Shown here: positions 2,561 through 62,272 of the stretch, piece after piece
Position numbering within the stretch: the first letter of the stretch is position 1
Layout of the letters: the number at the start of each line of letters is the position of its first letter
Assembly (NCBI RefSeq): GCF_963921235.1
Contig: NC_086097.1
Span: 27,778,001-27,842,000 of the forward strand
DNA length: 64,000 nucleotides
Source of the DNA: Mobula hypostoma
Taxonomy: Eukaryota
Direction: 5' to 3'
The notes under the pieces: model-generated
The model's database searches: none
What the model saw: only the letters and a program-made list of their open reading frames with translations
Told to the model about the DNA's origin: nothing
Made by a program: the position numbers and the translations under genes

Positions 2561-3039
2561 CTACAAAATGACTGACTTGTGCTCAAGTGGCAACACAAGA
2601 GTCTGCTCATGCTGGAAGCAGGAGCAACAAACAATTTGCTGGAGAAAGGAGAAAGGCAACAGGTTGAGCAGCATGTGTAGGGGAAAGGAACTGTCAATGT
2701 TTCAGCTTGCACCCTGCTTCCCGCTGAGTTCCTCCAACAAAATGTTTGTAGTCTGTGGTCAAGGGAGTTTCTCGATAGAAACTTTACCATGAGGGACAGG
2801 TGATGCTGCAAAGTTCAACCAAACGGAACATTCTGCAGCAATGAGTCATAGCTATCCTTCACCTTACATAAACAGTAAGTGGCATTACATGCTGCAGTTG
2901 TCTGTCCCCACCGCAGCCACACACAAAGGTGGCTACATTGTGTTTGTTGCTCCTGGAAGCCCCACCCAACCAAGACATTCTCTTGTCTCCTCTTCCCATC
3001 AGCTGAATATACAAAACCCTTAAAGTACACACCATCAGG

Positions 3040-4651
3040 GAAGTGGAAGGGAGGGATGGAAGGGAGGGAAGGAAGGGAGGGAAGGGAGGGAAGGAAGGGA
3101 GGGAAGGGAGGGAAGGGAGGGAAGGGAGAGGGAAGGGAGGGAAGGGAGGGGGAAGGGAGGGAAGGGAGGGGGAAGGGAGGGAAGGGAGGGAAGGGAGGGA
3201 GGGGAGGGGGAAGGGAGGGAAGGGAGGGAGGGGAGGGGGAAGGGAGGGAAGGGAGGGAGGGGAGGGGGAAGGGAGGGAGGGGAGGGGGAGGGGGAGGGGA
3301 AGGGAGGGAGGGGAGGGGGAGGGGGAGGGGAAGGGAGGGGGGGGAGGGGAAGGGGAAGGGAGGAAGGGGAAGGGGGGAGGGGAAGGGGGAAGGGGAAGGG
3401 AGGGAGGGGAGGGGAAGGGGAAGGGAGGGAGGGGAGGGGGAAGGGGAAGGGAGGGAGGGGAGGGGGAAGGGGAAGGGAGGGAGGGGAAGGGGAAGGGAGG
3501 GAGGGGAAGGGGAAGGGAGGGAGGGGAAGGGGAAGGGAGGGAGGGGAGGGGGAAGGGAGGGAGGGGAGGGGGAAGGGGAAGGGAGGGAGGGGAAGGGGAA
3601 GGGGGGAGGGGAAGGGGAAGGGAGGGAGGGGAAGGGGAAGGGAGGGAGGGGAGGGGAAGGGGAAGGGGAGGGGGGAGGGGAGGGGAAGGGGAAGGGAGGG
3701 AGGGGAGGGGGAAGGGGAAGGGAGGGAGGGGAGGGGGAAGGGAGGGAGGGGAGGGGGAAGGGAGGGAGGGGAGGGGGAAGGGGAGGGGAGGGGGAAGGGG
3801 AAGGGAGGGGGGAAGGGGAAGGGAGGGAGGGGAGGGGGAAGGGGAAGGAGGGGAAGGGGAAGGAGGGAGAGGGGAGGGAGAGGGGAGGGGAGGGAGAGGG
3901 GGGAGGGGGGAGGGAGAGGGGAGGGGGGAGGGAGAGGGGAGGGGGGAGGGGGGAGGGGAGGGAGAGGGGAGGGGGAGGGGAGGGGGGAGGAGAGGGGAGG
4001 GGGGAGGAGAGGGGAGGGGGGAGGGGAGGGAGAGGGGAGGGGGGAGGGGAGGGAGAGGGGAGGGGGGAGGGGAGGGAGGGGGGGGGGGAGGGGAGGGAGA
4101 GGGGAGGGAGAGGGGAGGGGGGGAGGGAGAGGGGAGGGGGGAGGGGGGGAGGGGGGGAGGGGAGGGAGAGGGGAGGGGGGAGGGGAGGGAGAGGGGAGGG
4201 GGGAGGGGGGGAGGGAGAGGGGAGGGGGGGAGGGGGGAGGGAGAGGGGAGGGGGGGAGGGAGAGGAGAGGGGAGGGGGGAGGGGGGGAGGGAGAGGGGAG
4301 GGGGAGGTGGGGGGAGGGGAGGGGGGAGGGGAGGGGGAGGGGAGGGGAGGAGGGGGGAGGGGGAGGGGGGAGGAGGGGGGAGGGGAGGAGGGGGGAGGAG
4401 GGGAGGAGGGGGAGGAGGGGAGGAGGGGGGAGGAGGGGAGGAGGGGGGAGGAGGGGAGGAGGGGGGGAGGGGGAGGGGAGGAGGAGGGGAGGAGGGGAGG
4501 GGAAGGAGGGGAGGAGGGGAGGGGGAGGAGGGGAGGGGGAGGAGGGGGGAGGGGAGGGGGGAGGGGAGGAGGGGGGAGGGGGAGGGGGAGGGGGAGGGGG
4601 AGGGGAGGGGAGGGGAGGGGGAAAGGAAGGGAGACGGGGGAAGGGGAGAAG
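3040..4651 (+). repeat. Polypurine (G/A) low-complexity tract in TTC7B intron 1
   Basis: 3058-4634 is G/A only apart from one T seen at 4308. Confidence 0.97.
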
Positions 4652-4931
4652 TTTGGTGGAAATAGATTGCGCGCGGTTGACGGACAGAGGGGGCGGGGCC
4701 GGGGTCCAGCCATCTCTCCGCTGCAGTATAGTTCCGGTCCCTAGTTCGACCCTGGTTAATGCTGGCGCTGCGGACCTGAGGTGAAAGCTCACTGAAAAAC
4801 TGCGGGTAACACCACCCGGGGACCTGGGCCAAATCCGTCTGCTGCCCGCCAGAGTGTATGCTGCTGTTCCCGACCGGATGGGCCCTCCCCAACTGACAGT
4901 TGAATGAGCGTCTAGGCCGCAGCATCCTTAC

Positions 4932-5052
4932 CGTTGCCGATGAGTTTTGCTGACAGTTGCTTGATGAGCTCTGGGATCTTCTCCCACAGGCACTCGTTGC
5001 GGCAGCGCTCAATCTCGATCTCCAGCCGCGTTCCGGACTTCTTAGCGGCCAT
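4932..5052 (-). CDS. TTC7B: Tetratricopeptide repeat protein 7B, first coding exon (121 nt)
   Basis: ATG at 5052 reads [40 protein letters not shown], matching the recalled TTC7B N-terminus ([40 protein letters not shown]). Ends at a G|GTAAGG donor at 4932/4931, lies in CpG-rich sequence and is downstream of RPS6KA5 as in human. Confidence 0.93.
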
Positions 5053-5098
5053 TTCAGCGGCAGGGGCCGGTGTGCGCCGGAGCGGGGCCGGGAGGACC

Positions 5099-5480
5099 GG
5101 GACTGTAGCGCCCGCCCCTGCCCTGGCGACGGTTGCCGGGACTGCAGCGCCGCTCGCTCCTGACACGGCGGCGTTTCCAGGGACTGCAGTTCCCGCTCCT
5201 GACACGACGGCTTTTCCAGGGACTGCAGCGCCTGCTCCCCCTCTGGCGGTGGCCCCCGGGACTGCAGTTCCCGCTCTTGACACGGCGGCGTTTCCAGGGA
5301 CTGCAGCGCCTGCTCCCCCTCTGGCGGTGGCCCCCGGGACTGCAGTTCCCGCTCTTGACACGGCGGCGTTTCCAGGGACTGCAGCGCCTGCTCCCCCTCT
5401 GGCGGTGGCCCCCGGGACTGCAGTTCCCGCTCTTGACGCGGCGGCGTTTCCAGGGACTGCAGCGCCGCTCGCTCCTCCCT
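5099..5480. repeat. Tandem repeat, 39-bp monomer / 78-bp dimer, about 10 monomers
   Basis: GGGACTG(C/T)AG anchors at 5099, 5138, 5180, 5219, 5258, 5297, 5336, 5375, 5414 and 5453, with two alternating monomer types. Confidence 0.92.
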
Positions 5481-9650: not shown

Positions 9651-9789
9651 AGGAGATAGAAGTGGGCAGTTATGGAGTTGGGGAACAGTCAGGTCTGATG
9701 GTATGGGACACATCCTGCTCTATTAGGAGGCATCTGAGAACTGCACCAGTCCAAATGAAGTATCTCAGACCAAAACATTGACTGTCAAA

Positions 9790-12700
9790 CAGGCAGGTGG
9801 TCACACCGGGGCCATGGGAGACAGACAAGTGGGTCACAGTCAGGAGGGGGAAGGGGAAAAGTCAGGTACTAGAGAGTACCCCTGTGGTTGTACCCCTTGA
9901 CAATAAGTACTCCTGTTTGAGTACTGTTGGGGGGTGGGGAGACAGCCTACTTGGGAGAAGCAACAGTGGCCGTGCCTCCGGCACAGAGTCCGGCTCTGTG
10001 GCTCAGAAGGGTAGGGAAAGGAAGAGAATGGCAGTAGTGATAGGGGACCCATAGTTAGGGGGTCAGACGGGCGATTCTGTGGACGCAGGAAAGAAACTCA
10101 GATGGTAGTTTGCCTCCCAGGTGCCAGGGTCCGGGATGTTTCTGATCACGTCCACGATATCCTGCAGTGGGAGGGAGAACAGCCAGAGGTTGTGGTACAT
10201 ATTGGTACCAATGACACAGGTAGGAAAAGGGAAGAGGTCCTGAAAACAGACTATAGAGAGTTGGGAAGGAAGTTGAGAAGCAGGACTGCAAAGGTAGTAA
10301 TCTCAGGATTACTGTCTGTACCACGCGATAGTGGGTATTCCACCGAGATGCAACACAGAGCGTCATAGGAAGTCATTCCTGCCTGTGGCCATCAAACTTT
10401 ACAACTCCTCCCTTGGAGGGTCAGACATCCTGAGCCAATAGGCTGGTCCTGGACTTATTTCATAATTTACTGGCATAATTTACATATTACTATTTAACTA
10501 TTTATGGTTTTATTACTATTTATTATTTATGGTGCAACTGTAACGAAAACCAATTTCCCCCAGGATCAATAAAGTATGACTATGACTCTGACACTAGGAA
10601 TAGAATGAGGTGGAGAATAAATGCGTGGCTGAGGAATTAGAGCAGGGGGCAAGGATTCAGATTTCTGGATCATTAGGACCTCTTTGGGGGCCTCTTTTGG
10701 GGTTGGCTCACAAACAGAGAAAGCTTGTAGACAGTGCAAGAGGGGGGATAGGCAGGTGATAGAGAAGGGACGCGCTCAGACCAATGGTTTGAGATGTGTC
10801 TATTTTAACGCAAGGAGTATTGTGAACAAAGCGGATGTGCTTAGAGCATGGATCAGTACTTGGAGCTATGATGTGGTGGCCATTACAGAGACTTGGATGG
10901 CTCAGGGACAGGAATGGTTACTTCAAGTGCCAGGTTTTAGATGTTTCAGAAAGGACAGGGAGGGAGGCAAAAGAGGTGGGGGCATGATACTGTTGTTCAG
11001 AGATAGTGTCACGGCTGTAGAAAAGGTGGACGTCATGGAGGGATTGTCTATGGAGTCTCTGGGTGGAGGTTGGGAACAGGAAGGGGTCAATAACTCTACT
11101 GGGTGTTTTTTATAGGCCGCCCAATAGTAACAGGGATATCGAGGAGCAGATAGAGAAACAGATCCTGGAAAGGTGTAATAATAACAGAGTTGTCGTGGTG
11201 GGAGGTTTTAATTTCCCAAATATCGATTGGCATCTCCCTAGAGCGAGGGGTTTAGATGGGGTGGAGATGATTAGGTGTGTTCAGGAAGGTTTCTTGACAC
11301 AATACATAGATCAGCCTACAAGAGGAGAGACTGTACTTGATCTGGTATTGGGAAATGAACCTGGTCAGGTGTCAGATCTCTCAGTGGGAGAGCATTTTGG
11401 AAATGGTGATCATTATTCTATCTCCTTTACCATAGCATTGGAGAGAGATAGGAACAGACAAGTTAGTAAAGCATTTAATTATGAGGCTATCAGGCAGGAA
11501 ATTGGAAGCTTAAATTCGGAGCAGATTTCTCGGAAAAGTACGGAAGAAATGTGGCAAATGTTCAGGGGATATTTGTGTGGAGTTCTGCATAGGTACGTTC
11601 CAATGAAACAGGGAAGTTATGGTAGGGTACAGGAACCGTGGTGTGCAAAGGCTGTAGTAAATCTAGTCAAGAAGAAAAGAAAAGCTTACAAAAGGTTCAG
11701 AGATTTAGGTAATGTTAGAGACCTAGAAGATTATAAGGCTAACAGGAAGAAGCTTAATAAGGATATTAGGAGAGCCAGAAGGGGCCATGAGAAGGCCTTG
11801 GTGGCCAGGATTAAGGAAAACCCCAAGGCATTCTGCAAGTATGTGAAGAGCAAGGGGATGAGATGTGAAAGAATAGGACCTATCAAGTGGGAAGGTATGT
11901 ATGGAACCAGAGGAAAAAGCAGAGGTACTGAATGTATACTTTACTTCAGTATTCACTATGGAAAAGAATCTTGGTGATTGTAGTGATTACTTGTAGTGGA
12001 CTGAAAAGCTTGAGATGGAGATATTAAGAAAGAGGATGTGCTGGAGCTTTTGGAAAGCATCAAGTTGGGGAAGTTGCCTGGACCGGATGAGATGTACCCC
12101 AGGCTACTGTGGAAGGCGAGGGAGGAGATTGCTGAACCACTGGCGATGATCTTTGCATCATCAATGGGGACGGGAGAGGTTCCAGAGGATTGGAGGGTTG
12201 TGGATGTTGTTCTTTTATTTAAGAAAGAGAATAGATATAGCCCAGGAAATTATAGACCAGTGTCTTACTTCAGTGGTTGGTAAGCTGATGGAGAAGATCC
12301 TGAGAGGCAGGATTTATGAACATTTGGAGAAGTATAATATGATTAGGAATAGTCAGCATGGCTTTGTCAAGGGCAGGTCGTGCCTTACGAGCCTGATTGA
12401 ATTTTTTGAGGATGTGACTACACACATTGATGAAGGAAGAGCAGTAGATGTAGTGTAGGTGGATTTCAGCAAGGCATTTGATAAGGTACCCCATGCAAGG
12501 CTTATTGAGAAAGTAAGGAGGCATGGGATCCAAGGGGACATTGCTTTGTGGATCCAGAACTGGCTTGCCCACAGAAGTCAAAGAGTGGTCGTAGACGGGT
12601 CATATTCTGCTTGGAGGTCGGTGACTAGTGGTGTGCCTCAGGGATCTGTTCTGGGACCCTTGCTCTTCGTGATTTTTATAAATTACCTGGATGAGGAAGT

Positions 12701-13630
12701 GGAGGGATGAGTTAGTAAGTTTACTGATGACACAAAGGTTGAAGGTGTTGTGGATAGTGTGGAGGGCTGTCAGAGGTTACAGCGGGACATCAATAGGATG
12801 TGAAACTGGGCTGAGAAGTGGCAGATGGAGTTCAACCCAGATAAGTGTGAGGTGGTTCATTTTGGTAGGTCAAGTATGATGGCAGAATATAGTATTAATG
12901 GTAAGACTCTTGGCAGTGTGGAGGATCAGAGAGATCTTGGGGTCCGAGTCCATTGGCGCTCAAAGCATCTGCGCAGGTTGACTCTGTGGTTAAGAAGGCA
13001 TATGGTGCATTGGCCTTCATCAATCGTGGGATTGAGTTCAAGAGCCGAGAGGTAATGTTGCAGCTATATAGGACCCTGGTCAGACCCCACTTGGAGTACT
13101 GTGCTCAGTTCTGGTCGCCTCACTACAGGAAGGATATGGAAGCCATAGAAAGGGTGCAGAGGAGATTTACAAGGATGTTTCCTGGATTGGGGAGCATGCC
13201 TTATGAAAATAGGTTGAGGGAACACAGCCTTTTCTCCTTGGAGCGACGGAGGATGAGAGGTGACCTGATAGAGGTGTATAAGATGATGAGAGGCATTGAT
13301 CATGTGGATAGTCAGAGGCTTTTTCCCAGGGCTGAAATGGTTGCCACAGGAGGATACAGGTTTAAGGTGCTGGGGAGTAGGTACAGAAGAGATGTCAGGG
13401 ATAAGTTTTTTACGCAGAGAGTGGTGAGTGCGTGGAATGGGCTGCCAGCAACGGTGGTGGAGGCGGATATGATAGGGTCTTTTACGAGACTTTTGGATAG
13501 GTACATGGAGGTTAGAAAAATAGAGGGCTATGGGTAAGCCTAGTAATTTCTAAGGTAGGGACATGTTCAGCACAACTTTGTGGGCTGAAGGGCCAGTATT
13601 GTGTTGTAGGTTTTCTGTTTCCATGTTTCT
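9790..13630 (+). mobile_element. Near full-length CR1 LINE (SGNH-esterase ORF1; APE+RT ORF2), inactivated
   Basis: ORF1 VIGD..VVCLPGA..VHIGTND; ORF2 [45 protein letters not shown](A)TG-type tail at ~13610-13630; several frameshifts and stops. Confidence 0.92.
10337..10594 (+). mobile_element. Short Rex1-tail element with (TATGAC)n tail, inserted in CR1 ORF1
   Basis: Starts ATTCCACCGAGATG and ends AATAAAGTATGACTATGAC; near-identical to 29386-29640 and 58827-59056. Confidence 0.88.
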
Positions 13631-14289
13631 AATTAAGTGCAAAAATGCTGCCTGACCTGCTGAGTTCCTCCCACGTCTTGCATGTAACATCATTACTTTG
13701 AGCTTCCAATCTACGTCACTGTGAAGTTCCAGCTTTCTATTTTGTAGATTTAATTTATTCCAGTACAGTATGTGTCTAAGGTCAAAATCAGGTTTATTAT
13801 CACTGACTTACTCTGATGTGAAATTTAAGGCAACAGTACAGCACAAAAACATAAAACTACTCTAAATTACAAAATAATTTGTGCAAAATAAAAGTCATGG
13901 GTTTGTCAACTGTTCAGAAATTTGATGGCAGGGGGACAGAAGCTATTTCCGAATCATTGAATGGGGCTCCGGCTTCCGTTCCTCTTCCCTGATGCTGGTC
14001 CTGAGAAAGTAGCATATCCCAGACGATGAAACCCCTGAATGAAGATGAATGCCTCACCCATTGGAGATGTCTTCAGTGGTGGAGGGAGTTGTCCCCATGA
14101 TGGAGATGGCTAAGACTACAATTCTGTGCAGCCTCTGTGATCCCATGCACCAGAGGCTCTGGGCCAAGCTGTGAGGCAATCAGTCAGAATGCTCTCCACG
14201 CTTACATCTGCAGAAATTTGAAATTTATTAAACTCTTCGGAGATACTGCAGTTGATCCCTTTTCTGAAAGATAATTCACTTTGGAAGGC

Positions 14290-22394: not shown

Positions 22395-23987
22395 CAGCGG
22401 CATGCAAAAGTTTGGACACCCCTGGTCAAAATTTATGTTACTGTGAATAGCTAAGCGAGTAAAAGATGACCTGATTTCCAAAAGGCATAAAGTTAAAGAT
22501 GACACATTCCTTTAATTATTTTAAGCAAGATTACTTTTTTATTTCCAAATAAAATAACAAAAAAGAAAAAAGGCCCAAAGAAAAAGTTTGGGCACCCTGC
22601 ATGGTCAGTACTTAGTAACACCCCCTTTGGCAAGTATCACAGCTTGTAAACGCTTTCTGTAGCCAGCTAAGAGTTTTTCAATTCTTGTTTGGGGGATTTT
22701 CGCCCATTCTTCCCTGCAAAAGGCTTCTAGTTCTGTGAGATTCTTGGGCCATCCTGCATGCACTGCCCTTTTGAGGTCTATCCACAGATTCTCAATGATG
22801 TTTAGGTCGGGGGACTGTGAGGGCCATGGCAAAACCATCAGCTTGCGCCTCTTGAAGTAGTCTATTGTGGATTTTGAGGTGTGTTTAGGATCATTATCCT
22901 GTTGTAGAAGCCATCCTCTTTTCATCTTCAGCTTTTTTACAGTGTGATGTTTGCTTCCAGAATTTGCTGGTATTTAATTGAATTCATCCTTCCCTCTACC
23001 AGTAAATGTTCCCCATGCCACTGGCTGCAACACAAGCCCAAAGCATGATCGATCCACTCCCGTGCTTAACAGTTGGAGAGGCATTCTCTTCATGAAGTTC
23101 TGCACCTTTTTTTCTCCAAACATACCTTTGGTCATTGTGGCCAAAAAGTTCTATTTTAACTTCATCAGTCTACAGGACTTGTTTCCAAAATGCATCAGGC
23201 TTGTTTAGATGTTCCTTTGCAAACTTCTGACGCTGAATTTTGTGGTGAGGACGCAGGAAAGGGTTTCTTCTGATGACTCTTCCATGAAGGTCATACTTCT
23301 GCAGGTGTCGCTGCACAGTAGAACAGTGTACCACCACTCCAGGGTCTGCTAAATCTTCCTGAAGGTCTTTTGCTGTTAAACGGGGGTTTTGATTTGCCTT
23401 TCTAGCAATCCTATGAGCAGTTCTCTTGGAAAGTTTTCTTGGTCTTCCAGACCTCAACTTGACCTCCACCATTCCTGTTAACTGCCATTTCTCAATTACA
23501 TTATGAACTGAGGAAACGGCAACCTGAAAACACTTTGCTATCTTCTTATAGCCTTCTCCTATTTTGTGGGCATCATTTATTTTAATTTTCAGCGTGCTAG
23601 GCAGCTGCTTAGAGGAGCCCATGGCTGCTGATTGTTGGAATAAGGTTTGAGGAGTCAGGGTATTTATAAAGCTTTGAAATTTGCATCACCTGGCCTTTCC
23701 TAATGATGACTGTGAACAAGCCGTAGCCCTAACAAGCTAATTAAGGTCTGAGGCCTTGGTAAAAGTTATCTGAGAGCTCAAATCTCCTGGGGTGCCCAAA
23801 CTTTTGCATGGTGTTCCTTTCCTTTTTTTCACTCTAATATTGTACAAAACAAAAATCCTTAAAATGTTGAAAAGAATGTTTCATCTTTAACTTTATGACT
23901 TTTGGAGATTAGTTCATCTTCTATTCACTTAATTATTCACAGTAACAGAAATTTTGACTGGGGTGCCTGAACTTTTGCATGCCACTG
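22395..23987 (-). mobile_element. Second full-length Tc1 (DD34E) transposon of a different family, disrupted
   Basis: Termini CAG(C/T)GGCATGCAAAAGTT; right TA at 23988-23989, left TA reads CA. Transposase 23622->22605: GEGYKKIAK..RSGRPRK..QQDNDPKH..SPDLNIIENLW. Confidence 0.92.
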
Positions 23988-30205: not shown

Positions 30206-33200
30206 CCCTTAGGTAACACACTGAGCATTCTGGCTTTCCTCTTGCCATCCTCTGAATGTGTTACCAATGTGAATGGCCTGTTTCTGTACATTCTATGTAA
30301 ACCAAGATACTGTGTTATTTTAATGGGGGAGATAATGTAGGAATTGTAACACATTAACGCTGGTAATGTGCCCTGCGGCTTGTTTTAATACTAATGTTTA
30401 CACCCAGGGGATATCAGACTAACGGCACTCATAGCAGTAACATTTTAAATTTTGATGGTTAACATTTACCTAACACAACAAAGGTGGTTGTTGGCAAATT
30501 TAAATATGTTCTGTTGAAAGGTCATCAAGTTGAAAAGTCATTTCTGGCTTCTCTATCCCTAATGCTTCCAGCGTTTTCCATTTTTATTTTAAACAGTTTG
30601 TTACTCTGTACTTGAGATTGGGGTGGAGGGTGGGGGTTGCAATGACGGGATGTTAATATTACACTAGAGTAACTTTGCTACTATTTCTCTTTGCAATCAT
30701 ATGGAAAGTGATTCTGTGTCTATATTTTCTCAGAAGGTTAAGGGGGTTTGGCATGTTCCTTCTTGTAAAAACTGAGTATAATTTGTTTATTTTTTTCTTG
30801 TGAGAGCTGTTTTTCTGATGCTATGTGCCTGTTATGCTGCTGTTAAGTTTTTAATTGTACCTGTGTACATACGTACTGTGCAGATGACAATGAACTCGAT
30901 CTTTACTCTATTTATTGTCAACTGAACAATGCTGTCACTGAAAACTAATGCATCAATTAGTTTCAACAAAATGTTCCGTGGTTGCACTTATCTAGTTTAC
31001 CTGGTTAACCTGTGGAGTGTTTCTACATGGGCTTTGCAGAGACTGGAAACATTCAGCAGGTTAGGCAGTATTTGCAAAGATAGAAACAGTCAATATTTTA
31101 GGTGAATGACCTTTCATTGGGACTTCATTTTTGGCAGAATTTTTGTTTCAGATTCCTAGAATCTACAAGTTTTATTTCAGTTACAGTGGAACTATGTACA
31201 CTTTTCATCCGACTGCAGTCCTGTAATTCGACTGGTGAGGATGAAGCCTGCAGCAAGCAGGCACCATCTTTGGAATATGGGAGGAAACTGGAACACCCAG
31301 AGGAAATGCATGCAGTCACAGGAGAACATACAATGTCTTTATGGGGAGAGGTGGATTTGAACCCAGATCGCTGGTGCTGAGGTGGTGTTACTAACATGTC
31401 ATTACCGGGGTTAAGAAGGGCAGTGTAGAATGGAGGGGTTCAGTATGATTACTCCTGCAGGGATCAGGCACATCTGTTATGGGATAAGTGGACAGATATG
31501 CACCAGAACTGTATCCTTGAGATGGTTCGATCACATTTGCTGTACAAATTGTTCTATTCCTTAAGACAACAAAGAATACCTAAATTTATGGCAAAGCAAA
31601 ATGCTATTTTCCTGTAAGTGTCAATAAAGTGTAATCATTATTGTGGAGCAAGATGCCCTCACAGACTTGCAATGTTAGTCATTGAAATGTTCTGAATTAA
31701 ATTGCATCAATCTCATAGCACATTTGTACAATGGACAGTTGTCCTCAACACACACAATAAATCCACAAATAATTTTTCTTTTTAAAAAATACAATGAATA
31801 TTTGCCAACCTCCTTTTAAGAAGTTGCATTTAAAACAATTTGACTTTAATGTTCTAAAAAGTCTTAAAAGCTTTCACAGGCTCACCTGAATAATGCTTTC
31901 AACTTTTAAAAACTTTGTACAAGTCGCTAGAAAGCTATAATAAACTTATCAATACTTTACTCATTTTCCTCATTAAATAATCAATAAATATATTACGGCA
32001 GTTCCCCTGTAAGAACAATATTCTACTTTTAATCAAGCTTTGTAAAAGTCAATATTATACAGGGTTAAAAACTATATGCAAAAATTCATGTTCAGTATGA
32101 TTTTGTTTAAACATATAAGCCCAACTCCCTTAAGTATAAAGACTTGGAGGAGAAGAGGTTTTGAATAGTTTTGCACTGTGTATTGTGTACAGCTCTGTAG
32201 AGTATGTTTCACCTAGACTGAAGAGAAGCCTGTAGCTCTTTAAAACTACTGGTCGTATTGAACCTGGATGCATAAAGAAATTAACAATGCAATCTGTTCA
32301 ACATCTTAATATTTACAAAGTCCCAAAAAACGATGGCAAGATTATAATGAAAGAAGCCTCTAAAAAGAGACTGCACAATTCAGCCTGGACCGTGCACCAA
32401 ACATTTAGAGATGCAATGGTCGACACCCACTTAAAGCACACCATGTACTCTTAAGGGTGTGGAGTAATTTAGTAATCCCCATGCTGAGAAAACTCATACT
32501 AACATTAAAAAAATACATTTTTAAGAACTTCCCTCAGATACTGTCCAGGCATACATGGTTAACAGATTCATAATACACCCAGTGCAACATACCCAGTAAC
32601 AGTAAATAAAATATAATTAAAATGGTTGAAAACTTCCTGGGAAAACTTTGGCATCAAAAGTGATGTGGCATGTTACGTGAAGAAATCTTTGGATATAATC
32701 CACTTCAATGACCTTTAGTGAGATTTTGCCATACACATATCAATGATCATTCAGATATGTCCGTTGAGACACTCCTCCCATCACTTACAAAGCTCCATCT
32801 CTGGACAGTGTCTTGAATTTAGATGAGTAATGTAGCAGTATGTCTACATTAATAATTTATGTTAATGGCACCATAGCCTCAGAGTTACTTGGACTGAAGG
32901 ATATTTTGTTTTCTCCATTGTATTTTTAATAAGTGTTCCACTAGAGCAAACATTAATCAACTTCACAAACTTTGAGCTTTGCACGACACTGACATTCAAA
33001 GGACAGGACAGCTGTAATGGTGTTTTTTGTAAAGTCCTATTCAGTACAATGACAGATTGGATGAGGGGGTTGCTGAGGAATAAGATATCTGCCTGTGTTT
33101 TATGCCCTGATCTTCCCAGGAAGTTTCAACTGCAAGTCCCCACTGGTAAAATAAGCACAGGAACAATTGTAATAGGGCGATCCAGAACCCAGGCCCATCT

Positions 33201-33959
33201 GCTCTCTCTGGCCTTCATTGTTCCTTAAGCTGATAACCAAGCAGAGATACAGATAAATACAGGTAGTCTTCACTCAAAGCAATCCCTCAAGCACAGAGAT
33301 ACATTGTTTAAATATGACCGGTGGGCAAGATTGCATTGGTACGAAAAATTATGGCCCTTGCTTTTGGTCATGTAGATCACAATGATAACATTTCCTTTTC
33401 AGTAAGGTATCATACTTCGAAAAGTTTCCTATTCACACGAAAGAAATCAGAGACAACAGACTTCTAAAAACTCAAACCCCAAGGTTATTTGAAAATTATT
33501 TTGTACTCGGTCACAGATCAGATCAGATCAAAACTGACATAGGCTAAAAGTCAGATGTTCCTCTGTGCCTCCATGACTGATAAAGAAAACTTTAGATGCA
33601 CACAAGAGACTGCAGATGCTGGAAGTCTTGAGCAACGCACACAGAATGCTGATGGGACTCAGCAGTTCATAAAGCCCGAAACGTTTATTTCTTTCCATAG
33701 ATGCTGCCTGACCTGCTGAGTTCCTCCAGCATTTTTTTTTAGAGAAAATGAAAACAGCAAGTGCTGGAAACAGGCAAGTTGGTGGAATATGTGGAGGGGA
33801 GAAAAATAACTGTTGTGTTCTTTGCAGAGTAGATGTGCATTTTAGCATGCACTATTTTCATTTCAGGTTTCCTTCTGCAGCATTCTGCTTATATTGCAAT
33901 TTATATTTCATTAGAGAGTGTAAAAGGCATTAGCGAAAGTCAAAGATGGGAATCAGCTT

Positions 33960-34490
33960 CCTGAACACAAGGATTTTGTAGATGCTAGAAATCTAGAGTA
34001 ACAAAGACAAAATGCTGGAAGAACACAGCAAGTCAGGCAGTGTCTATGGAGATGAATAAACAGTCCATCTTTCAGGCAGAGACTACTCATTAGGACTGGA
34101 AAGGAAGAAGGCAGAAGTCAGAATAGGTAGGTGGGGGGAGGAGAAGGAGTACAAACTGGCGGGTGATAGATGAGACCAGCTGAGGGGTTAGGTGCTTTGG
34201 TTAGGGAGGGGGATAAAGTGAGAAGCTAGGAGGTAAGATGTGGAAAAGGTAAAGAGCTGAAAGAGGAGGAATTGGACAGGAGAAGACAAAGGACCATGGA
34301 AGAAAGGGAAGGAGGAATAGCACCAGAGGCAAGTGATAGGCAGTGAAGAGTAGAGAAGGGATAAGAGGGGAGCCAGAATGGAAAAAGAGATGGGGTCAGG
34401 GGAAAGGAGAAATTATTGGAAGTGGGAGAAATCAATGTTCACGTCATTAAGTTGGAGGCTACCCAAACAGAATATGTGGTGTTGCTCCAG
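33960..34490 (-). mobile_element. Penelope-like element terminal (pLTR) remnant with degenerate hammerhead motif
   Basis: Homologous to the reverse complement of ~42970-43425; minus-strand CAGTCCTAATGA...GAAAGATGGACTG at 34061-34098. Confidence 0.65.
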
Positions 34491-35328
34491 AAGTTGGAAA
34501 ATGTGGCAAGTTTTTGGAAGCCTGTTGCTTGTTGTGCATAGAATCTGTGACTCTCACCTGCAACTACTGTGGGGCAGGTTGAGCATCTATCATTCTATTC
34601 ACCTGAATTCCTATGGATAATCTTCACTGAGTTTTTGCTAAAATGACTGAGCTGCAGTTTACCTGCAGATGTACTTAAAAATAATATACACTTTCATCCA
34701 ACAGGGGACTTCACATCATAAGGGTCCCTGCAGTACAAATAGTGCGTAAATTTTCCGTGCAACAATGCAGCACAGATTATTTATATTAGCAAGAGCAGAG
34801 TCTGCATCACTCAACTATCTAACTATTGGTCATTCATGAACACAATTACCAAGCAAGACAAGCTGTTGGCTGCGAGACAGCAGTAGAGAAATTAATGGCT
34901 GGAACACAAACTTTTTAAAAACTTGTACTAACAGGTTTGCTACAAGATTATTGCTCATGCAAGAAATAAACAGATTACATGCCAAATAATACATTTATAA
35001 CAAAGCATTTGGCAACAGAAGCCAAACATTTCTATCAAAAAGCCATTGCTTCACTATATAAGCAACTTACCAAATGGTACCCACCCACCCACTCTAACAA
35101 ATAAAACAGCATAAATAAAAGTCACCTTAGGACTCAGATTTCTCAAATGGTTCACACACTTTACACTCCTGCAGTGTTCATAGTTAGTAACATAACAACA
35201 AGGGTTTATTTTGAAGGTGAACAATTAAAATAAAATCTCCCAACCCTGCTGGGAATATAAATTTCTTCTCAGATTGCCAGGAGACAAACAGCACCAAGCA
35301 CCAAGAAAGCAGGGAGATAAACCTGCTA

Positions 35329-35864
35329 CACACAAAATGCTGGAGGAACTCAGCAGGTCAGGCTGCATTTATGGAATTGAATAAAAAGTTGACATTTCAG
35401 GCCGAGACCCTTCGTTAGGACTGGAAAGGAAAGGAGAAGAAGTGAGAAAGAGAAGCTGGGGGGAGGGGAAAGAGTACAAGTTGGCAGCGTTAGGTGAGCG
35501 AGTCTGAGCTCATAGTTGAAGGTTTAGCAGAGACCTTGAAGGGGAGCAGTGAGACAGTCTTAATGAACTCCCATCAAAGAGAATATTTAAACTTCTTCAG
35601 GGTAGGTGTACCTTGAAGAGAATTCACAGTGGAGCAGCAAATCATAAACATGAGAGATTCTGCAGATTCTGGAAATCCTTAGCACTCACACAAAATGCTA
35701 GCAGGTCCAGCAACAGCTATATATAGAAACTCAATGTTTCAGGCCAAGACGGTTCAAGACTGTTTATTCCTCCCCACAGATGCTACCTAACTTGCTGAGT
35801 TCCTCCAGCATTTTGTGCATGTGTTGTTCTGGATTTCCACCATCTGGAAAATCTCTTGTGTCTA
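35329..35864. mobile_element. Penelope-derived insertion with inverted terminal segments and a perfect 14-bp TSD
   Basis: TSD AGATAAACCTGCTA at 35315-35328 and 35865-35878; CACACAAAATGCTGGAGGAACTCAGCA and its inverse; hammerhead-like motif at 35388-35424 on the minus strand. Confidence 0.8.
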
Positions 35865-36885
35865 AGATAAACCTGCTAAGTTTGCACCAAAACACATCAG
35901 GCTGCTGGGTGCTTTGATACTGAGAGAGGAAATGCAGGAAAGACAACTGAGAGTGATTCCAATACTCCAACAGACAGAGCAGGAATATCAAAGTGTCTGG
36001 AAAAGAATTAACACCAAGTGGCAGCTGTAAACAGTCTAGCAAATAATCTGAGAAATCTGAATCCTCTGCCTACCTCTGTTGCATATTTTATGTACATCAA
36101 TAGATCTATTTATACAGCAAATCTGTCATCGATACAGTCTTTTAGATAAAGGTAAGTTAGTAAACACCGCGCTTTCATCTTACCTTCAATCCTTTCAGGC
36201 CTGTACAACAGAGATATGTTCTTTGAAAAATACACCTCATAGATGTTTGCATACTGCAGCCATTCTTTCACACAAAAAATACACAGAGTAAAGAACTAAA
36301 AGCCCTTTGAATGCCAGGCACAGAGTTTCACTCTCTGCAGTACATCTATTTTTGAATCTTTTAAAAATCAGTCCCTGTTCCAATATACAGAATATTACAT
36401 ACAGAAATTACAGCACAGGAACAGGCCACAGGCCCAAGTGGTCCATGTTGCTTTCATGCTCTCTCAGAGCCTCCTCCTGCCCTACTTCACCCTGTCAGTA
36501 TGGGCCTTTTGTTCTGTTCTTCCTCATGTATTTAGTTATTTTGCCCTTAATCACAACTACTCTATTCATTCCAACAATTACATGAGGTAGCACGTTCACC
36601 ATTCTTGACACTCTTTGGGTAAAGACGTTTCTCCTGAATTTCATTATTGAATTCATTATTTGGATCTTGTACTTAATGACCCCCTAGCTCTGGATTCCCC
36701 AGAGAAAACTGGGTCAATCAACCTTGTAGGACAATGCAGGACTATCTACATATACACAACATAAATAAATGTCACAAGATACTATGGAGGAATGCATTTA
36801 AAAATGGCATGTGGTCTTCAAAGGGTTATACGGATGATTAAAACATGATTTTTTTTTTAAATTGTGAAAGAGGGACTGTAGCAGC

Positions 36886-42504: not shown

Positions 42505-43425
42505 AGGATGTTCCCTTAGAACAGGGATGAGAATCGTCCGCCACCTTCAACATGATCTTTAGACCAAACACAACTTAACCTCCTTCCCAACTACCCCCCC
42601 ATCACCCACTCTTTGCAGGGATTTCACAGGGAATGGACCAGTGTTTCCCTGGTCCATTCATCCCTCCCAGCACTTAGCCCTGTAAGCAGAAAAAGTGCCT
42701 CATCTGCTCATTAACCTTCCCTCTCACCTCCATTCAGGGCCCCTAACAGTCCTTCCAGGTGAGGCAACACTTCATCTGAGTCTGTTGGGATAATCTACTG
42801 TATCCAGTGTCCCGATGCAGCCTCTTCTGCATCGGAGATACCTGACACAGACTGTGGCACCACTTTGTCGAGCACCTATGCTTGTCTGCAGCAAGCAGGA
42901 TTCTCGTTGGCCAGTTCCATTTCCATTCTGACATGTTGGTCCATGGCCTCCTCTACTGTCACAATAAAGCCATTCTCAGGTTGTCTCCAACTTGAAGACA
43001 TGCAAATCAACTTCCCTAACTTCTATTTAACTTTACTTGCTCCTCCACCCCTCATCTTCCATTCCTCACTCTGAATCCCCTCTCATCTCTTCTCTTCACG
43101 CCGTCACATCCCTCTGGTGTGCCTCCTCCCCTTTCTTCCATAGACCACATTTCTCTCCCATCAGATTCCTTCTTGAGCCCTTTACCTTTTCCACCTATCG
43201 CCTCCCAGCTTTTCACTTCATCTCCCCTCCACCACCTACCTACTTTCCCTCTCACCTAGCTTCACCCATCACCCTCCAGTTGGTACTCCTTCCCCTCCTC
43301 CTACCTTTTATTCTGGATTCTTCTCCCTTCTTTTCCAGTCCTTATGAAGATTCTCGGCTCAAAACGTTGAATGTTTGTTCTTTTCAATAGATGCTGCCTG
43401 ACCCTGAGTTCCTCCACCATTTTGT
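42505..43425 (+). mobile_element. Penelope-like element 3' remnant: GIY-YIG endonuclease plus pLTR
   Basis: Frameshifted reading QSFQVRQHF..SVGIIYCIQC.RCSLFCIGDT.HRL.HHFVEHL at ~42745-42880; pyrimidine-rich 3' region; CAGTCCTTATGAAGATTCTCGGCTCAAAACGTTGA hammerhead remnant at ~43336-43372. Confidence 0.72.
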
Positions 43426-43577
43426 ACATGTTACTGAGGAGGAATTTCTTTAGCCAGTGGGTAGTGAATCTGTGGAATTCATTGCCACAAACAGCTGTGG
43501 AGACCCTAGTCATTGAAAGTATTTGAAGCAGAGGCTGATAGGCTCTTGATTAGTCAGGGTGTCAAAGGTTATGGACA

Positions 43578-47632: not shown

Positions 47633-48213
47633 GAAGACAGGATAAAGGGGTTGAGAGCAAAAATAAATAAGTTATGATTGAATGGCAGAACAGATATGAT
47701 GGGCTGAATGGCCTAATTCTACTTCTATGGCTTATGGTCTAATCTACACTTGGAAAGGCAGTCCCATGCAGGGTCCCAAAACATTGACTGTCCATTTTGC
47801 TCCATGGAAGTTCTGCTGAGAGCTCCAGATTCCAGTATTTGCAGTCTCGTGTCTCCAGTGATTACTCAAAGATAGTCAATGTTGCTCTGTTACAGGGATA
47901 CACTGTCTCATCAATATGATTGAATTTTAAAGCTTAAGCATCTAAGAGCATGCCTGCTATAGAAGGGCTGAGGAAATCATGGATTCACATGATACTAAAA
48001 TTGCCAAATGCAGATTTTGGGGTTGAAAGAGATCACAGAAATATAGCGGGGTGCAGGAATTTGAACAAAGGCATTGCAGTTTTAAAACTGACCTGAAGAC
48101 TTCCACTTGTTTCAACAGAGTCAAATTTCATATCCTATTGCTGTCTTGGGAGATTCATTTTTGTAAAAGGCATCATGTAAATGTAAATGTAGTTTGTAGC
48201 AGCCAAAGAACTA

Positions 48214-48838: not shown

Positions 48839-50375
48839 CAGGTGTCCCCCGCTTTTCAAACATTCGCTTTATGAGTCCTCGCTGTTACAAAAGACCTACA
48901 TTAGTTATCTGTTTTCGCTAACAGAAGGTGTTTTCACTGTTACGAAAAAAGCAGCACGCGATAAAAGGCAGCACGCGCTCCAAGCAGCCAAGCTCCTCCG
49001 CCGGAACTGCATTCTAGCCAGCATTGCTTAAACACGTGCCTGTGAGCAGTCGTTAGCAAGATGAGTTCTAAGGTATCGGAAAAGCCTAAAAGAGCTTGTA
49101 AGGCTGTTACACTTAGCGTAAAACTAGACATAATTAAGCGTTTCGATCGTGGTGAATGAAGTAAGGACAAAGTGAGTTTGGCTTGTGGAAGTTGACGAAG
49201 ATGATGTTGAAGAGGTTTTGGCATCCCATGTCCAAGAACTGATAGATGAAGAGCTGATGCAATTGGAAGAGGAAAGGATAACAACTGAAACCGAATGCAG
49301 TGAAGTCGTCCAGGAACTAAACGTGAAGCAACGGCGTGAGATGATAGAAAAATGCGCGAGGATAAGCAGTCAAGCATACTATCGTTTTTCAAGCTTTCCA
49401 CATCAGCCACAGCAGACGCCGAACCTCGACATCGAGGCAGGCAGACATAGAAGAAGATGACCTGCCTGCCCTGATGGAAACAGATGACGACGAGATGACA
49501 CCCTAGTGTCCCACCACCCCAACCCCCCGGCCGCGGACTGATACATTGCCGCAGAGAATGCAGCGGTAGCTGGGACGCACCCAGCACATCTTTTAGAAAA
49601 AAGCCGAAATAAACAAGTTAATTAATTAGGTGCTGCCTGGCACATAAATGTCGGCCCAGATCAGAGGCGATTGCCGATTGCGTCACCTTTGATCTGGGCC
49701 GACATTTACGTGCCGGGTGGCACCTAATTAATTAGCTTGTTTATTTTGACTTTTTTCTTAAAGATGTGCTGAGTGTGTCCTGGCTACCGCTGTACCGCTG
49801 CATTCTTCACGGATCGGTATCTGTTGGCGGCCTGGAGGTTGGTGTCCACCGCACCACCCCACCCCACCCTCCGACGACTCAGCCTAACACATCATCATCA
49901 GTGTGCTCGGCGCTGTCTTTCCAATTCCAGTAAGTGATACTACACTGTACACACATTATTTCTACTTTATATAGTCTGTGTATTTTTATGTGTTACTTGG
50001 TATGATTTGGCAGTTTCATAGCTTAAAGGTTACTGGAGAGAGTGTTTTTGCTGAGAGCACTTGCACCGTGTTTCTGCCAAGAGCGCTTGCGTGAGATTTT
50101 CACTACAGAGAACAGCGCGGCAATGATTGTAGAGTAGTATTTCTACTTTATATAGGCTATGTATTCATCATATCATTCCTGCTTTTACTATATGTTACTA
50201 TTATTTTGGGTTTTATGTGTTATTTGGCATGATTTGGTAGGTTATTTTTAGGTTTGCGAACGCTCACAAATTTTTCCCATAGAAATTAATGGTAATTGCT
50301 TCTTCACTTTACGACATTCCGGCTTACAAACCGTTTCATAGGAACGCTCTACCTTCGGATGGCGAGGGAAACCTG
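48839..50375 (+). mobile_element. Tigger/pogo internal-deletion derivative with TIRs and TA TSD
   Basis: TA|CAGGTGTCCCCCGC...GCGAGGGAAACCTG|TA. Remnant MSSKVSEKPKRACKAVTLSVKLDIIKRFDRGE (CENP-B-type HTH) abuts the acidic C-terminus EVDEDDVEEVLASH..EELMQLEEE with no DDD domain between. Confidence 0.85.
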
Positions 50376-50679
50376 TACTGTAAATTTGATTTAAACACAG
50401 AAACTACTGGCAGGAGTCATCAGATCCCACTCAGCATCTGGTGACAGAAGCAGTAGGGAAGGTGTTTGAGGTGTTGGACTGCTTTTCTTTCCCAATGCTG
50501 GTTATGCAGAGATTTAGGATATTTTTAAAGTCAAACATCACAGAAATGAGCCCTTTAGCCGAATTGGTCCATGCAACCAAAATTCCCATCTAAACCAGTC
50601 CCAATAGCCCATATTTGTTCCATATCCATCCATACCTCTACTTTCCATTTACCTGTCCAAGTACTTTTCATATGTTGTT

Positions 50680-56817: not shown

Positions 56818-57750
56818 CCTCTGATCTGGGCCGACATTTACGTGCCAGGTGGCACCTAATTAATTACGTAAACACGAGGAATTCTGCAGATGCTGGAAAT
56901 TCGAGCAACACACATCAAAGTTGCTGGTGAACACAGCAGGCCGGGCAGCATCTCTAAGAAGAGATACAGTCAACATTTCGGGCCTGACAAAGGGTCTCGG
57001 CCTGAAACGTCGACTGTACCTCTTCCTAGAGATGCTGCCTGGCCTGCTGTGTTCACCAGCAACTTTGATGTGTGTTATCTAATTAAATAGCTTGTTTATT
57101 TTGGCTTTTTTCTTAAAGATGTGCTGGGTGTGTCCCAGCTACTGCTGTACCCCTGCATGCTTCACGGATCGGTATCGGTTCACTGCCCGGGGGGGTGGGG
57201 GCCACTGCACCACCCCAACCTCTGACGACTCAGCCTAAAATACCATCATCAGTGTGCTCGATGTCATCCCGATTCCCGTAAGTGATACTACACTATACAT
57301 ACATTATTTCTACTTTATATCGGCTGTGTATTTTTATACTTTATTTGGTATGATTTGGCAGCTTCACAGCTTAAAGGTTACTGGAGAGAGTGTTTTTGCC
57401 AAGAGCGCTTGCGTGAGATTTTCTGCCCAGAGCGCTTGCGCCACGTTTTGCCAAGAGCACTTGCGTGAGATTTTCGCTACGGAGAACAGTACAGGTAAGG
57501 ATTGTAGAGAAGTATTTCTACTTTATATAGGCTGCGTATTTATCATATCATTCCTGCTTTTACTATATGTTACTGTTATTTTAGGTTTTATGTGTTATTT
57601 GGCATGATTTAGTAAGTTATTTTTGGGTCTGCAAACACTCACAACTTTTTCCCATATAAATAAATGGTAATTGCTTCTTCGCTTTACAACATTCCAGCTT
57701 ATGAACCATTTCAAAGGATCGCTCTACCGTCGGTTGGCGGGGGAAAGCTG
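56818..57750 (+). mobile_element. Right half of the Tigger derivative (homologous to ~49686-50375)
   Basis: Starts CCTCTGATCTGGGCCGACATTTACG and ends GGCGGGGGAAAGCTG|TA. Confidence 0.88.
56867..57078. mobile_element. Penelope-derived hairpin insertion with hammerhead-like core and ~11-bp TSD
   Basis: Inverted arms of ~75 bp; CTGACAAAGGGTCTCGGCCTGAAACGTCGACTG at 56984-57016; TSD CTAATTAA(T/A)TA at 56856-56866 and 57079-57089. Confidence 0.8.
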
Positions 57751-58413
57751 TATTCATTAAGTAGTTCTGCTATTTCCTCCGGTTCCATACACACTTCCAC
57801 ACTTGATAGGTCCTATTCTTTCACGTCTCATCCTCTTGCTCTTCACATACTTGTAGAATGCCTTGGGGTTTTCCTTAATCCTGCCCAAGGCTTTCTCATG
57901 GCCCCTTCTGGCTCTCCTAATTTCCTTCTTAAGCTCCTTCCTGTTAGCCTTATAATCTTCTAAATCTCTAACATTACCTAGCTCTCTGAACCTTTTGTAA
58001 GCTTTTCTTTTTTTCTTGACTAGATTTACTACAGCCTTTGTACACCACGGTTCCTGTACCCTACCATAACTTCCCTGTCTCATTGGAACGTACCTATGCA
58101 GAACTCCACACAAATATTCCCTGAACATTTGCCACATTTCTTCCATACCTTTCCCTGAGAACATCTGTTCCCAATTTAAGCTTCCAAGTTTCTGCCTGAT
58201 TGCCTCATAATTCCCCTTACTCCAATTAAATGCTTTCCTAATTTGTCTGTTCCTATCTCTCTCCAATGCTATTGTAAAGGAGATAAAATTATGATCACTA
58301 TCTCCAAAATGCTCTCCCACTGAGAGTTCTGACACCTGACCAGGTTCATTTCCCAATACCAAATCAAGTACAGTCTCTCCTCTTGTAGGCTGATCTATGT
58401 ATTGTGTCAAGAA

Positions 58414-62000: not shown

Positions 62001-62272
62001 GTGGAATCATTAAAGAGGTATTTAGACAGGCAAAGAAGACCATTTACAGTGAGATGAGATTGGCATCATGGTCAGCACAGACAGGCTGGGCCAAAAGGCC
62101 TGTTCCTGGGCTGTATTGTTCTATGTTCCTCACTTTACAAATGCTGCCTAGCCTGTTGAGTATTCCCAACATTCTCTGTCTTAAGAGAGGAACCTACCTC
62201 TAAAAGCAGGTAGGGAGTAATGAAGAGGGAGGACAATGATGCAAATGGTCAGGAGGGGAAAACTGGTAACTA

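What the first reader, a model, noticed from the sequence alone, without database searches (positions are those of the whole stretch)
56867..57078. Mini Penelope-derived hairpin element carrying a minimal hammerhead ribozyme core
Seen: a 212-bp insertion with an ~11-bp TSD and long inverted arms. Its centre reads CTGACAA-A-GGGT-CTCG-GCCT-GAAAC-GTC-GACTG. Comparing about eight related copies (~9750, 31085-31125, 33675, 34061, 35388, 43336, 47760) gives the consensus CAGTC-CTGATGA-A-GGGTCTCGGCCC-GAAAC-GT(T/C)-GACTG. That is stem I, the CUGANGA box, stem II, GAAA and a palindromic ACGU in place of stem III. Known: Penelope-like elements carry such minimal type I hammerheads in their pLTRs. The copy at 43336 follows a GIY-YIG remnant, linking the hairpins to a PLE. 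Inference: this is a non-coding, ribozyme-bearing hairpin family mobilised by a PLE. This copy has G8A and has lost the 5' strand of stem I, so it is probably inactive.
Basis: partly seen in the sequence, partly recalled or inferred. Interest (0 to 1): 0.75.

Follow-up and report, generated by a model that had tools for sequence, protein, structure and literature searches.

The report
Dead fold-back Penelope retroelement insertion
This hairpin-shaped 212-base insert is a real but ordinary leftover of a Penelope-type jumping gene in a cartilaginous fish: two stubs of the element's end joined head to head, with a broken copy of a self-cutting RNA motif already known from such elements.

Summary
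The insertion is real. It spans 56867-57078, has an 11-bp TSD (10/11 identical), 78-nt arms (92%) and a 40-nt extension on one side only; two empty sites lie in the window. Its centre is a decayed minimal type I hammerhead: G8A, G10.1·U11.1 wobble, stem I cut to 1 bp, and masked by the hairpin by 20 kcal/mol. Related ends follow a Cys-linker/GIY-YIG remnant, so the parent is a Neptune-type Penelope-like element. Best protein hits are from rays and skates.

The 'hairpin family' reading is not supported. Five fold-back loci in the window (three clear, two weaker) have five different junctions, and this junction holds at most about 2% of family depth in four runs. It fits the published inverted-copy-plus-tail PLE insertion, truncated on both sides.

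The scan found the same pattern before in two other genomes. Ordinary, though usable as a record of PLE integration.

The parts
56856..56866 (+). Left copy of the 11-bp AT-rich target-site duplication
   Evidence: single copy at the empty sites
56867..56906 (-). About 40-nt PLE 'tail', present on the left arm only; ends at the distal 3' terminus of the family
   Evidence: no partner on the right; aligns with tails of 7 other window copies; family alignments in run X14 stop near 56869
56907..56984 (-). Left arm: inverted, 5'-truncated pLTR end, starting 15 nt downstream of hammerhead C3
56983..56984 (.). Head-to-head junction; 2-nt overlap (CC) shared by both arms, no added bases
   Evidence: read from the sequence and the arm pairing
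56983..57076 (+). Right arm: direct, 5'-truncated pLTR end from -1 to +92 relative to C3, no tail; followed by 2 extra bases
   Evidence: in run X14 contigs continue into the tail after 57076
56984..57016 (+). Decayed minimal type I hammerhead: C3 at 56984, G8A at 56989, stem II 56992-57003 (4 bp, 4-nt loop, G10.1-U11.1 wobble), GAAA 57004-57007, palindromic A-C-G-U, C17 at 57011, stem I 3' strand 57012-57016; stem I 5' strand lost but for 1 nt
   Evidence: descriptor scan; per-position table; family G at 56989
57079..57089 (+). Right copy of the TSD (1 mismatch)
56818..57752 (+). Host repeat into which the element inserted (class not identified by any search)
   Evidence: matches 49685-50377 at 83-96%
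49685..50377 (+). Paralogue of the host repeat with the empty site (11-mer once, 49724-49734)
49561..49667 (-). Second short paralogue with the empty site
42531..43437 (+). 3' fragment of a Neptune-type PLE: Cys linker (C-x4-C-x2-C) and broken GIY-YIG (42660-42983), pyrimidine-rich 3' UTR, decayed hammerhead with C3 at 43341, tailless end
33960..34499 (-). 3' PLE fragment: last about 28 codons of the ORF, 3' UTR, decayed hammerhead (C3 at 34093), tail
   Evidence: tblastn E 3e-4; 71% to the 43k copy over 473 nt
35315..35878 (.). Composite PLE insertion with a perfect 14-bp TSD (35315-35328 / 35865-35878): two pLTR ends on the minus strand plus one inverted end; head-to-head junction at 35758-35762 coincides with stem I and the cleavage site
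33597..33745 (.). Fold-back copy with another junction (left arm from +58 with tail, right arm from about +16); no CUGANGA box; no TSD found at its ends
2578..2763 (.). Old fold-back copy (left arm from +18 with tail; right arm weak, 5 of 200 shuffles as good); candidate 10-bp TSD with 1 mismatch
31037..31180 (.). Old copy with a hammerhead core on the minus strand (C3 at 31120) and a weak opposite arm bearing the tail (score 38, 0 of 200 shuffles)

Best explanation
The 212-bp insert is a one-off, dead product of a Neptune-type Penelope-like retrotransposon (PLE), not a member of a self-propagating hairpin family. SHOWN: an insertion with an 11-bp TSD at an AT-rich site; two head-to-head stubs of the PLE 3' end; a tail on one arm only; a hammerhead remnant; homology of these ends to RT/GIY-YIG elements; differing junctions between loci. 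INFERRED: the GIY-YIG nicked both strands 11 nt apart. Each 3' end primed reverse transcription of PLE RNA, the left at the distal start site (tail included) and the right about 40 nt further in (no tail). Both cDNAs stopped early (at +15 and -1 relative to C3) and were joined through a 2-nt overlap. Each arm holds sequence the other lacks (tail left, core right), which simple self-copying of one arm cannot give. Part of the shortening may instead be later deletion at the centre of a longer palindrome. The hammerhead is a passenger: it belongs to the parent's pLTR, where it would work as a dimer or with protein help, and here it is truncated, mutated and masked.
For: Empty sites and TSD. [quoted passage not shown] PMC11167929 (parts 1-2 of 4): a PLE protein nicks and extends both strands, prefers AT-rich ATT sites, and starts RT at two sites that delimit the tail. 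Five fold-back loci with five junctions: left/right starts +15/-1, +18/about +40, +58/about +16, -5/+28, -4/about +60; 3 of the 5 show the double asymmetry. A perfect 14-bp TSD bounds the composite at 35329-35864. In four runs 723, 565, 456 and 138 contigs leave the right arm at 56983 for pyrimidine-rich sequence ending in a stem I 5' strand; the bin holding the inner left arm has 0.4-2.1% of the depth of the next bin; 8 of the 15 joints shown (of 578) link left and right parts at other places. GIY-YIG link: 23 hits at E up to 0.001, best 1.3e-11; 9 of 11 hits scanned match Pfam GIY-YIG at E up to 0.0021 (2 of them above the curated cut-off), and 2 also match RVT_1 below its cut-off. Opening the hammerhead fold in the hairpin RNA costs 20.1 kcal/mol.
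Against: No genome was held, so no genome-wide junction census was done; five loci is a small sample and two have a weak second arm. One search used assembled contigs at 85% likeness: depth is not copy number, inner-left-arm sequence is preferentially placed on the right arm, hairpins assemble badly, and the tool warns that short-sided joints often come from repeats. The GIY-YIG link is through older, 70-75% similar copies; no ORF of the young subfamily was seen. Twin priming cannot be told from post-insertion deletion at this single locus. PMC3846280 favours self-priming for such junctions.
Confidence: 0.8

Rival explanations
1. One reading: a non-autonomous hairpin family, transcribed as such and remobilised in trans by the PLE enzyme, with this copy as one member.
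For: The insert keeps both PLE 3' termini, including the tail, and pLTR sequence was reported to suffice in cis for mobilisation of other sequence (PMC3846280). Non-autonomous PLE derivatives are described (MRC1; retrozymes). Both arms share one non-majority letter (56933/57050), as copying from a variant template would give. The depth bound (up to about 2% of a very abundant family) leaves room for many copies.
Against: Five junctions in five loci. Most contigs leave at 56983 for parent sequence. The shared letter is a CpG site carried by about 20% of family depth in runs X1 and X5. Retrozymes are head-to-tail tandems, not fold-backs. A 78-bp duplex would bury the ribozyme.
Confidence: 0.08
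2. The insertion began as a longer PLE copy with an inverted 5' end (like the composite at 35329-35864, made by twin or self-priming) and lost its centre later by microhomology-mediated deletion. Same parent and same dead status, different route to the small size.
For: 2-nt overlap at the junction. Microhomology deletions in PLE copies are described (PMC3846280). The 35.3-35.9k composite looks internally deleted. Long palindromes are unstable (general knowledge, no call).
Against: No longer allele was seen, but no listed contig spans the locus, so this was not tested. 5' truncation on insertion is the rule for PLEs.
Confidence: 0.1
3. A MITE or DNA-transposon derivative, or a miRNA-like hairpin gene, with a chance resemblance to a hammerhead.
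For: Long inverted arms. Rfam gives only sub-threshold miRNA matches (best 44.8 bits against a cut-off of 88) and no hammerhead family. The descriptor hit with one mismatch is matched by one null hit.
Against: The ends are asymmetric. The arms are homologous to the 3' end of GIY-YIG-bearing fragments on the coding strand. The motif sits where PLE hammerheads sit and meets the published consensus once the family letters are considered.
Confidence: 0.02

Closest known systems
Complex insertions of endonuclease-positive Penelope-like elements: inverted 5'-truncated copy plus one-sided tail (Craig et al. 2021, PMC8557442; Arkhipova et al. 2013, PMC3846280; passages read)
   Same: Head-to-head pLTR ends, overlap at the inverted junction, 30-40-nt tail on one end, short TSD at an AT-rich site (published 8-10 bp; here 11 and 14).
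   Different: Both copies are cut back to under 120 nt, so only a 212-bp hairpin is left, with no ORF and no full pLTR.
[quoted passage not shown]
   Same: CUGANGA + one extra base, G10.1-C11.1, short stem II, GAAA, palindromic N-N between A15.1 and U16.1, U/C at 17, pyrimidine-rich 5' flank, position 3' of the GIY-YIG ORF on the coding strand.
   Different: This copy has G8A, a wobble at 10.1-11.1 and a 1-bp stem I. Older window copies lack G5. No cartilaginous fish is among the rows of their Fig. S3 or Table S1 as I read them.
Neptune clade of PLEs
   Same: Cys-rich linker (C-x4-C-x2-C) just before the C-terminal GIY-YIG at 42678, the trait given for Neptune (and Nematis).
   Different: No RT remnant in the window and no tree built, so Neptune versus Nematis rests on the linker and on Neptune being the vertebrate clade.
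Animal non-LTR retrozymes (bioRxiv 10.64898/2026.07.22.740005; parts 1 and 3 of 5 and passages read)
   Same: Non-coding, pLTR-derived, type I hammerhead; reported also in one chondrichthyan genome.
   Different: Retrozymes are head-to-tail tandem units with intact ribozymes; this is a single head-to-head fold-back with a broken one.

Membership tests
EN+ Penelope-like element insertion | Sequence is the 3' end of an element whose ORF ends in GIY-YIG | tested here: met
   Arms align to the copies at 34k and 43k, which follow ORF remnants; hits carry GIY-YIG and RT. The link runs through older relatives.
EN+ Penelope-like element insertion | Inverted 5'-truncated copy joined head to head | tested here: met
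EN+ Penelope-like element insertion | 30-40-nt tail at one end | tested here: met
   56867-56906, 40 nt, left only
EN+ Penelope-like element insertion | Short TSD at an AT-rich target, with empty site | tested here: met
EN+ Penelope-like element insertion | Full-length RT-EN parent with this pLTR in the genome | not testable with these tools
   no genome held; no RT remnant found in the window
Neptune clade | Cys-rich linker between RT and EN | tested here: met
   C-x4-C-x2-C at 42678 aligned to the linker of an 816-aa RT+GIY-YIG protein
Neptune clade | Placement in an RT phylogeny | not tested
   no RT sequence of this family was at hand
Minimal type I hammerhead (this copy) | Intact CUGANGA box | tested here: not met
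   G8A
Minimal type I hammerhead (this copy) | Stem I of 3-7 bp | tested here: not met
   1 bp
Minimal type I hammerhead (this copy) | Stem II of 3-7 bp and GAAANNUH | tested here: met
   4 bp with two G-U pairs, 4-nt loop; GAAA-CG-U-C
Minimal type I hammerhead (young subfamily) | Core and stem I intact in the family | tested here: inconclusive
   G8 is the majority letter (65-95% of depth) and loose ends restore a 5-bp stem I with one U-G pair. G5 is only inferred, from contigs aligning back to 56983 across the G8 mismatch; 40 of 134 variant rows were shown.
Minimal type I hammerhead (older copies) | G5 conserved | tested here: not met
   0 of 5 older copies with a core have G5: 4 A, 1 T
Minimal type I hammerhead | Covariation in stems I and II | tested here: inconclusive
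   6 copies: 81.5% of cells paired (slid controls 17-40%), 2 pairs changed on both sides, 150 of 500 shuffles as high
Minimal type I hammerhead | Self-cleavage as dimer or with protein help | not testable with these tools
   bench assay needed
Non-autonomous PLE-derived family (retrozyme or SINE-like) | Many dispersed copies sharing one structure and junction | tested here: not met
   5 loci, 5 junctions; rough depth bound of 2% or less; window-scale only
Non-LTR retrozyme | Head-to-tail tandem units with intact hammerheads | tested here: not met
   single head-to-head unit; no intact core in the window

The most novel reading that the evidence does not exclude
The thousands of such fold-back stubs in ray and shark genomes are a fossil record of PLE integration. 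Their double asymmetry would show twin priming from the two RT start sites, and their inner ends would pile up at the hammerhead cleavage site, as the right arm at 35758 does (it starts exactly at +28). That would be in-vivo evidence that the minimal ribozyme cuts the template. An older subfamily may have spread with a G5-less, dead core.
Probability: 0.15. Interest if true: 0.6.

Novelty: new member of a known kind. Interest (0 to 1): 0.22.

Why it matters
As a locus it matters little: a dead transposon stub inside another repeat. As a class, such stubs are abundant and small enough to be read whole, with both ends, junction and TSD. They could test two open points about PLEs: how the inverted copy and tail arise (twin priming versus self-priming), and whether the pLTR hammerhead cuts in vivo. 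PMC11167929 found that cleavage is not needed for insertion in vitro and saw no RNA-seq ends at the cut site. For annotation, such hairpins can be mistaken for MITEs or miRNA precursors.

Tried and rejected
No whole genome was available, so the genome-wide consensus and junction count were not done.

Rfam: no hammerhead family, only sub-threshold miRNA-type hairpin hits, rejected as generic.

Collection scans for more copies: arm motif gave 1 locus in viral contigs, 0 in metagenomes, 0 in prokaryote genomes; hammerhead motif gave 2, 0 and 0 loci. All 3 loci match only over the motif and are chance.

Pfam on three frames of the broken GIY-YIG region: no GIY-YIG hit, one irrelevant weak match. 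The word-index protein search also failed; the exhaustive phmmer search succeeded.

An attempt to read family letters at G5 and G8 from predicted peptides across the motif found no candidates.

Sequencing runs: no RNA holder on record. X14 is only guessed to be RNA, so nothing is claimed on expression.

TSD searches at 33.6k, 31k, 9.7/13.7k, 34k and 43k gave only 7-9-bp matches at chance level.

Two descriptor hits in LINE remnants (13083, 56712) and one at 30254 with two core mismatches were treated as chance; the null gave 0 at that setting, and two of the three are copies of one repeat.

Tail folds gave small hairpins of -5 to -11 kcal/mol with no single shared structure; no covariation test was run on them.

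Literature: 7 searches. Penelope + Neptune + shark + inverted gave 0 papers; Penelope + hammerhead + Chondrichthyes gave 3; Penelope + twin priming + inverted gave 2, seen as listings only and apparently off-topic. No paper describing this family was found in that library, which lacks most subscription papers; Repbase and Dfam could not be checked. Lunse et al. 2017 was seen only as cited in PMC6765202 (passages). The supplements of the 2026 preprint, which may list chondrichthyan families, were not seen.

Full report
SETTING. The window is repeat-rich vertebrate DNA: many LINE-type RT remnants and Tc1-type remnants and one coding exon matching the TTC7 N-terminus at 4912-5049 on the minus strand (Pfam E 6.9e-11). 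The closest named proteins to the endonuclease remnant are from Hypanus sabinus and Leucoraja erinacea, so the source is most likely a ray or another cartilaginous fish. No genome was held.

THE INSERT IS REAL. Bases 56867-57078 lie between two 11-bp direct repeats (10 of 11 identical). Such a repeat arose in 10 of 300 random window pairs, so the empty site is the stronger proof. Two paralogues of the host repeat in the window carry the 11-mer once. In four public runs contigs skip 223 bases here, and 165, 222 and 121 contigs in three of them run from 56866 directly into the right flank. The arms are 78 nt at 92%; the fold has z -20.6, with 0 of 200 shuffles as good.

ANATOMY. Taking hammerhead C3 (56984) as 0: the right arm runs from -1 to +92 on the plus strand; the left arm runs from +15 on the minus strand through +92 and on for a further 40 nt that the right arm lacks. 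The two overlap by two bases with nothing added. Seven other window copies carry an alignable 40-nt extension. This is the PLE 'tail'. Craig et al. (PMC8557442, passages) describe an inverted 5'-truncated copy at the 5' end and a 30-40-bp tail often on one end only. Arkhipova et al. (PMC3846280, passages) describe overlapping inverted pLTRs with 8-10-bp TSDs.

LINK TO A PLE. A 100-residue reading of 42678-42977 found 23 proteins at E up to 0.001 among 1.84 billion, best 1.3e-11. Of 11 scanned, 9 match Pfam GIY-YIG (E up to 0.0021, 2 above the cut-off) and 2 also match RVT_1 below its cut-off. An 816-aa RT+GIY-YIG protein aligns to 42636-42983 (E 1.8e-10), including a C-x4-C-x2-C linker, and the ORF's last codons recur at 34499-34416 (E 3e-4). 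In both fragments the hammerhead-like motif lies about 320-360 nt downstream on the coding strand, and the target's arms align to that end (scores 89 and 75 against null maxima of 34-35). The linker points to the Neptune clade; no tree was built.

THE HAMMERHEAD. I coded the published min-HHR descriptor (PMC4209133 Fig. S7). No site in the window passes intact. This copy is the only hit with one core mismatch if stem I may be 1 bp, and the null gave one hit too, so the motif is not significant alone. Its standing comes from context and family. At 56989 the family letter is G in 83, 73, 65 and 95% of depth. In the four runs 723, 565, 456 and 138 contigs continue upstream of 56983 into a pyrimidine-rich stretch ending in a strand that pairs with 57012-57016. 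With those letters the young subfamily meets the published consensus. G5 in that subfamily is inferred, not counted. This copy has G8A, C11.1U and no stem I. Single changes at C3 or G8 abolish cleavage in a PLE hammerhead (G8C and C3G tested in PMC11167929). Forcing the ribozyme fold in the hairpin RNA costs 20.1 kcal/mol. Stems pair in 81.5% of cells, but covariation does not exceed shuffles (150 of 500). Rfam has no matching hammerhead model.

FAMILY OR BY-PRODUCT? Five loci are fold-backs, three clear and two with a weak second arm. Their inner ends are +15/-1 (target), +18/about +40 (2.6k), +58/about +16 (33.6k), -5/+28 (35.7k) and -4/about +60 (31k): five loci, five junctions. The 35.7k fold-back is the end of a larger composite bounded by a perfect 14-bp TSD, the textbook arrangement in miniature. 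In the runs, the bin holding the inner left arm has 1.4, 2.1, 1.9 and 0.4% of the depth of the next bin, a rough ceiling on contigs that cross this junction. Eight of 15 joints shown (of 578) join left and right parts at other places. These data are contigs at 85% likeness and only suggestive. Together they favour repeated independent production by the PLE over one amplified hairpin.

HOW IT MOST LIKELY FORMED (inferred). In vitro, a PLE protein nicks both strands at AT-rich ATT sites, extends both, and starts RT at two internal sites that delimit the tail (PMC11167929). The target here is an AT-rich palindrome with ATT on both strands. Nicks 11 nt apart, one cDNA from the distal start and one from the proximal start, early stops and a 2-nt join give exactly this insert. 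The left arm has the tail and lacks the core; the right arm has the core and lacks the tail. One arm folding back on itself cannot supply both without later trimming. Three of the five loci show this double asymmetry. Later deletion from a longer palindrome is the main rival for the small size, and self-priming has been argued for such junctions.

KNOWN OR NEW. It works like, and meets the testable features of, an EN+ PLE insertion. This copy fails membership as a working hammerhead and as a retrozyme. Seven literature searches found no description of this family, but repeat databases could not be checked. Two earlier notes of this scan, on other shark-type genomes, reached the same reading. 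I stated my reading before seeing them and do not count them as evidence.

VERDICT. Observation largely right, interpretation half right: a dead, doubly truncated, inverted Neptune-type PLE insertion with a relic minimal hammerhead. New member of a known kind; interest 0.22. What remains open is the G5-less older copies and whether junctions cluster at the cleavage site.

Noticed in passing
window 9752, 31120, 34093, 35418, 43341 (C3 positions): All five older copies with a hammerhead core lack G5 (4 A, 1 T), at a non-CpG site, while all keep G8. Unexplained: possibly an older subfamily that spread with a dead core.
   Followed up: partly
window 35315-35878: Miniature composite PLE insertion with a perfect 14-bp TSD. 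Its head-to-head junction falls on stem I, so the right arm starts exactly at the hammerhead cleavage site. About 135 nt at 35510-35645 may be the element's 5' region; not confirmed by homology.
   Followed up: partly
window 9748-9785 and 13636-13685: These look like two halves of one PLE end split by a 3.8-kb LINE insertion at about 9791-13628.
   Followed up: partly
window 56818-57752, 49685-50377, 49561-49667: Host repeat of about 700 bp with a short internal tandem repeat (57394-57475). Two copies near 49.6k lie in opposite orientation. Its end resembles a TA-flanked DNA transposon terminus (recalled, not tested).
   Followed up: no
window 4912-5049 (-): Coding exon matching the TTC7 N-terminus (Pfam PF19440, E 6.9e-11), next to a GC-rich tandem repeat (5097-5476) and a long purine-rich low-complexity tract (3037-4651). 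The target lies about 52 kb upstream of it.
   Followed up: partly
window 56933 and 57050: Both arms share the same non-majority letter at a CpG site (about 20% of family depth in two runs): a shared template variant, arm conversion or coincidence.
   Followed up: partly
window tails at 56867, 33960, 33595, 35644, 35818, 2588, 47820, 31140: The tail tends to fold into a small stem-loop (-5 to -11 kcal/mol), but predicted structures differ between copies. It may mark the RT start sites.
   Followed up: partly
window 945-1511, 22605-23685: Tc1-type transposase remnants (DDE_3, E 6.4e-16 for 945-1511; the second by its look only).
   Followed up: no
window 47766-47840 and 62126-62179: Further decayed single PLE ends (E 0.008 and 4.8e-7).
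   Followed up: no
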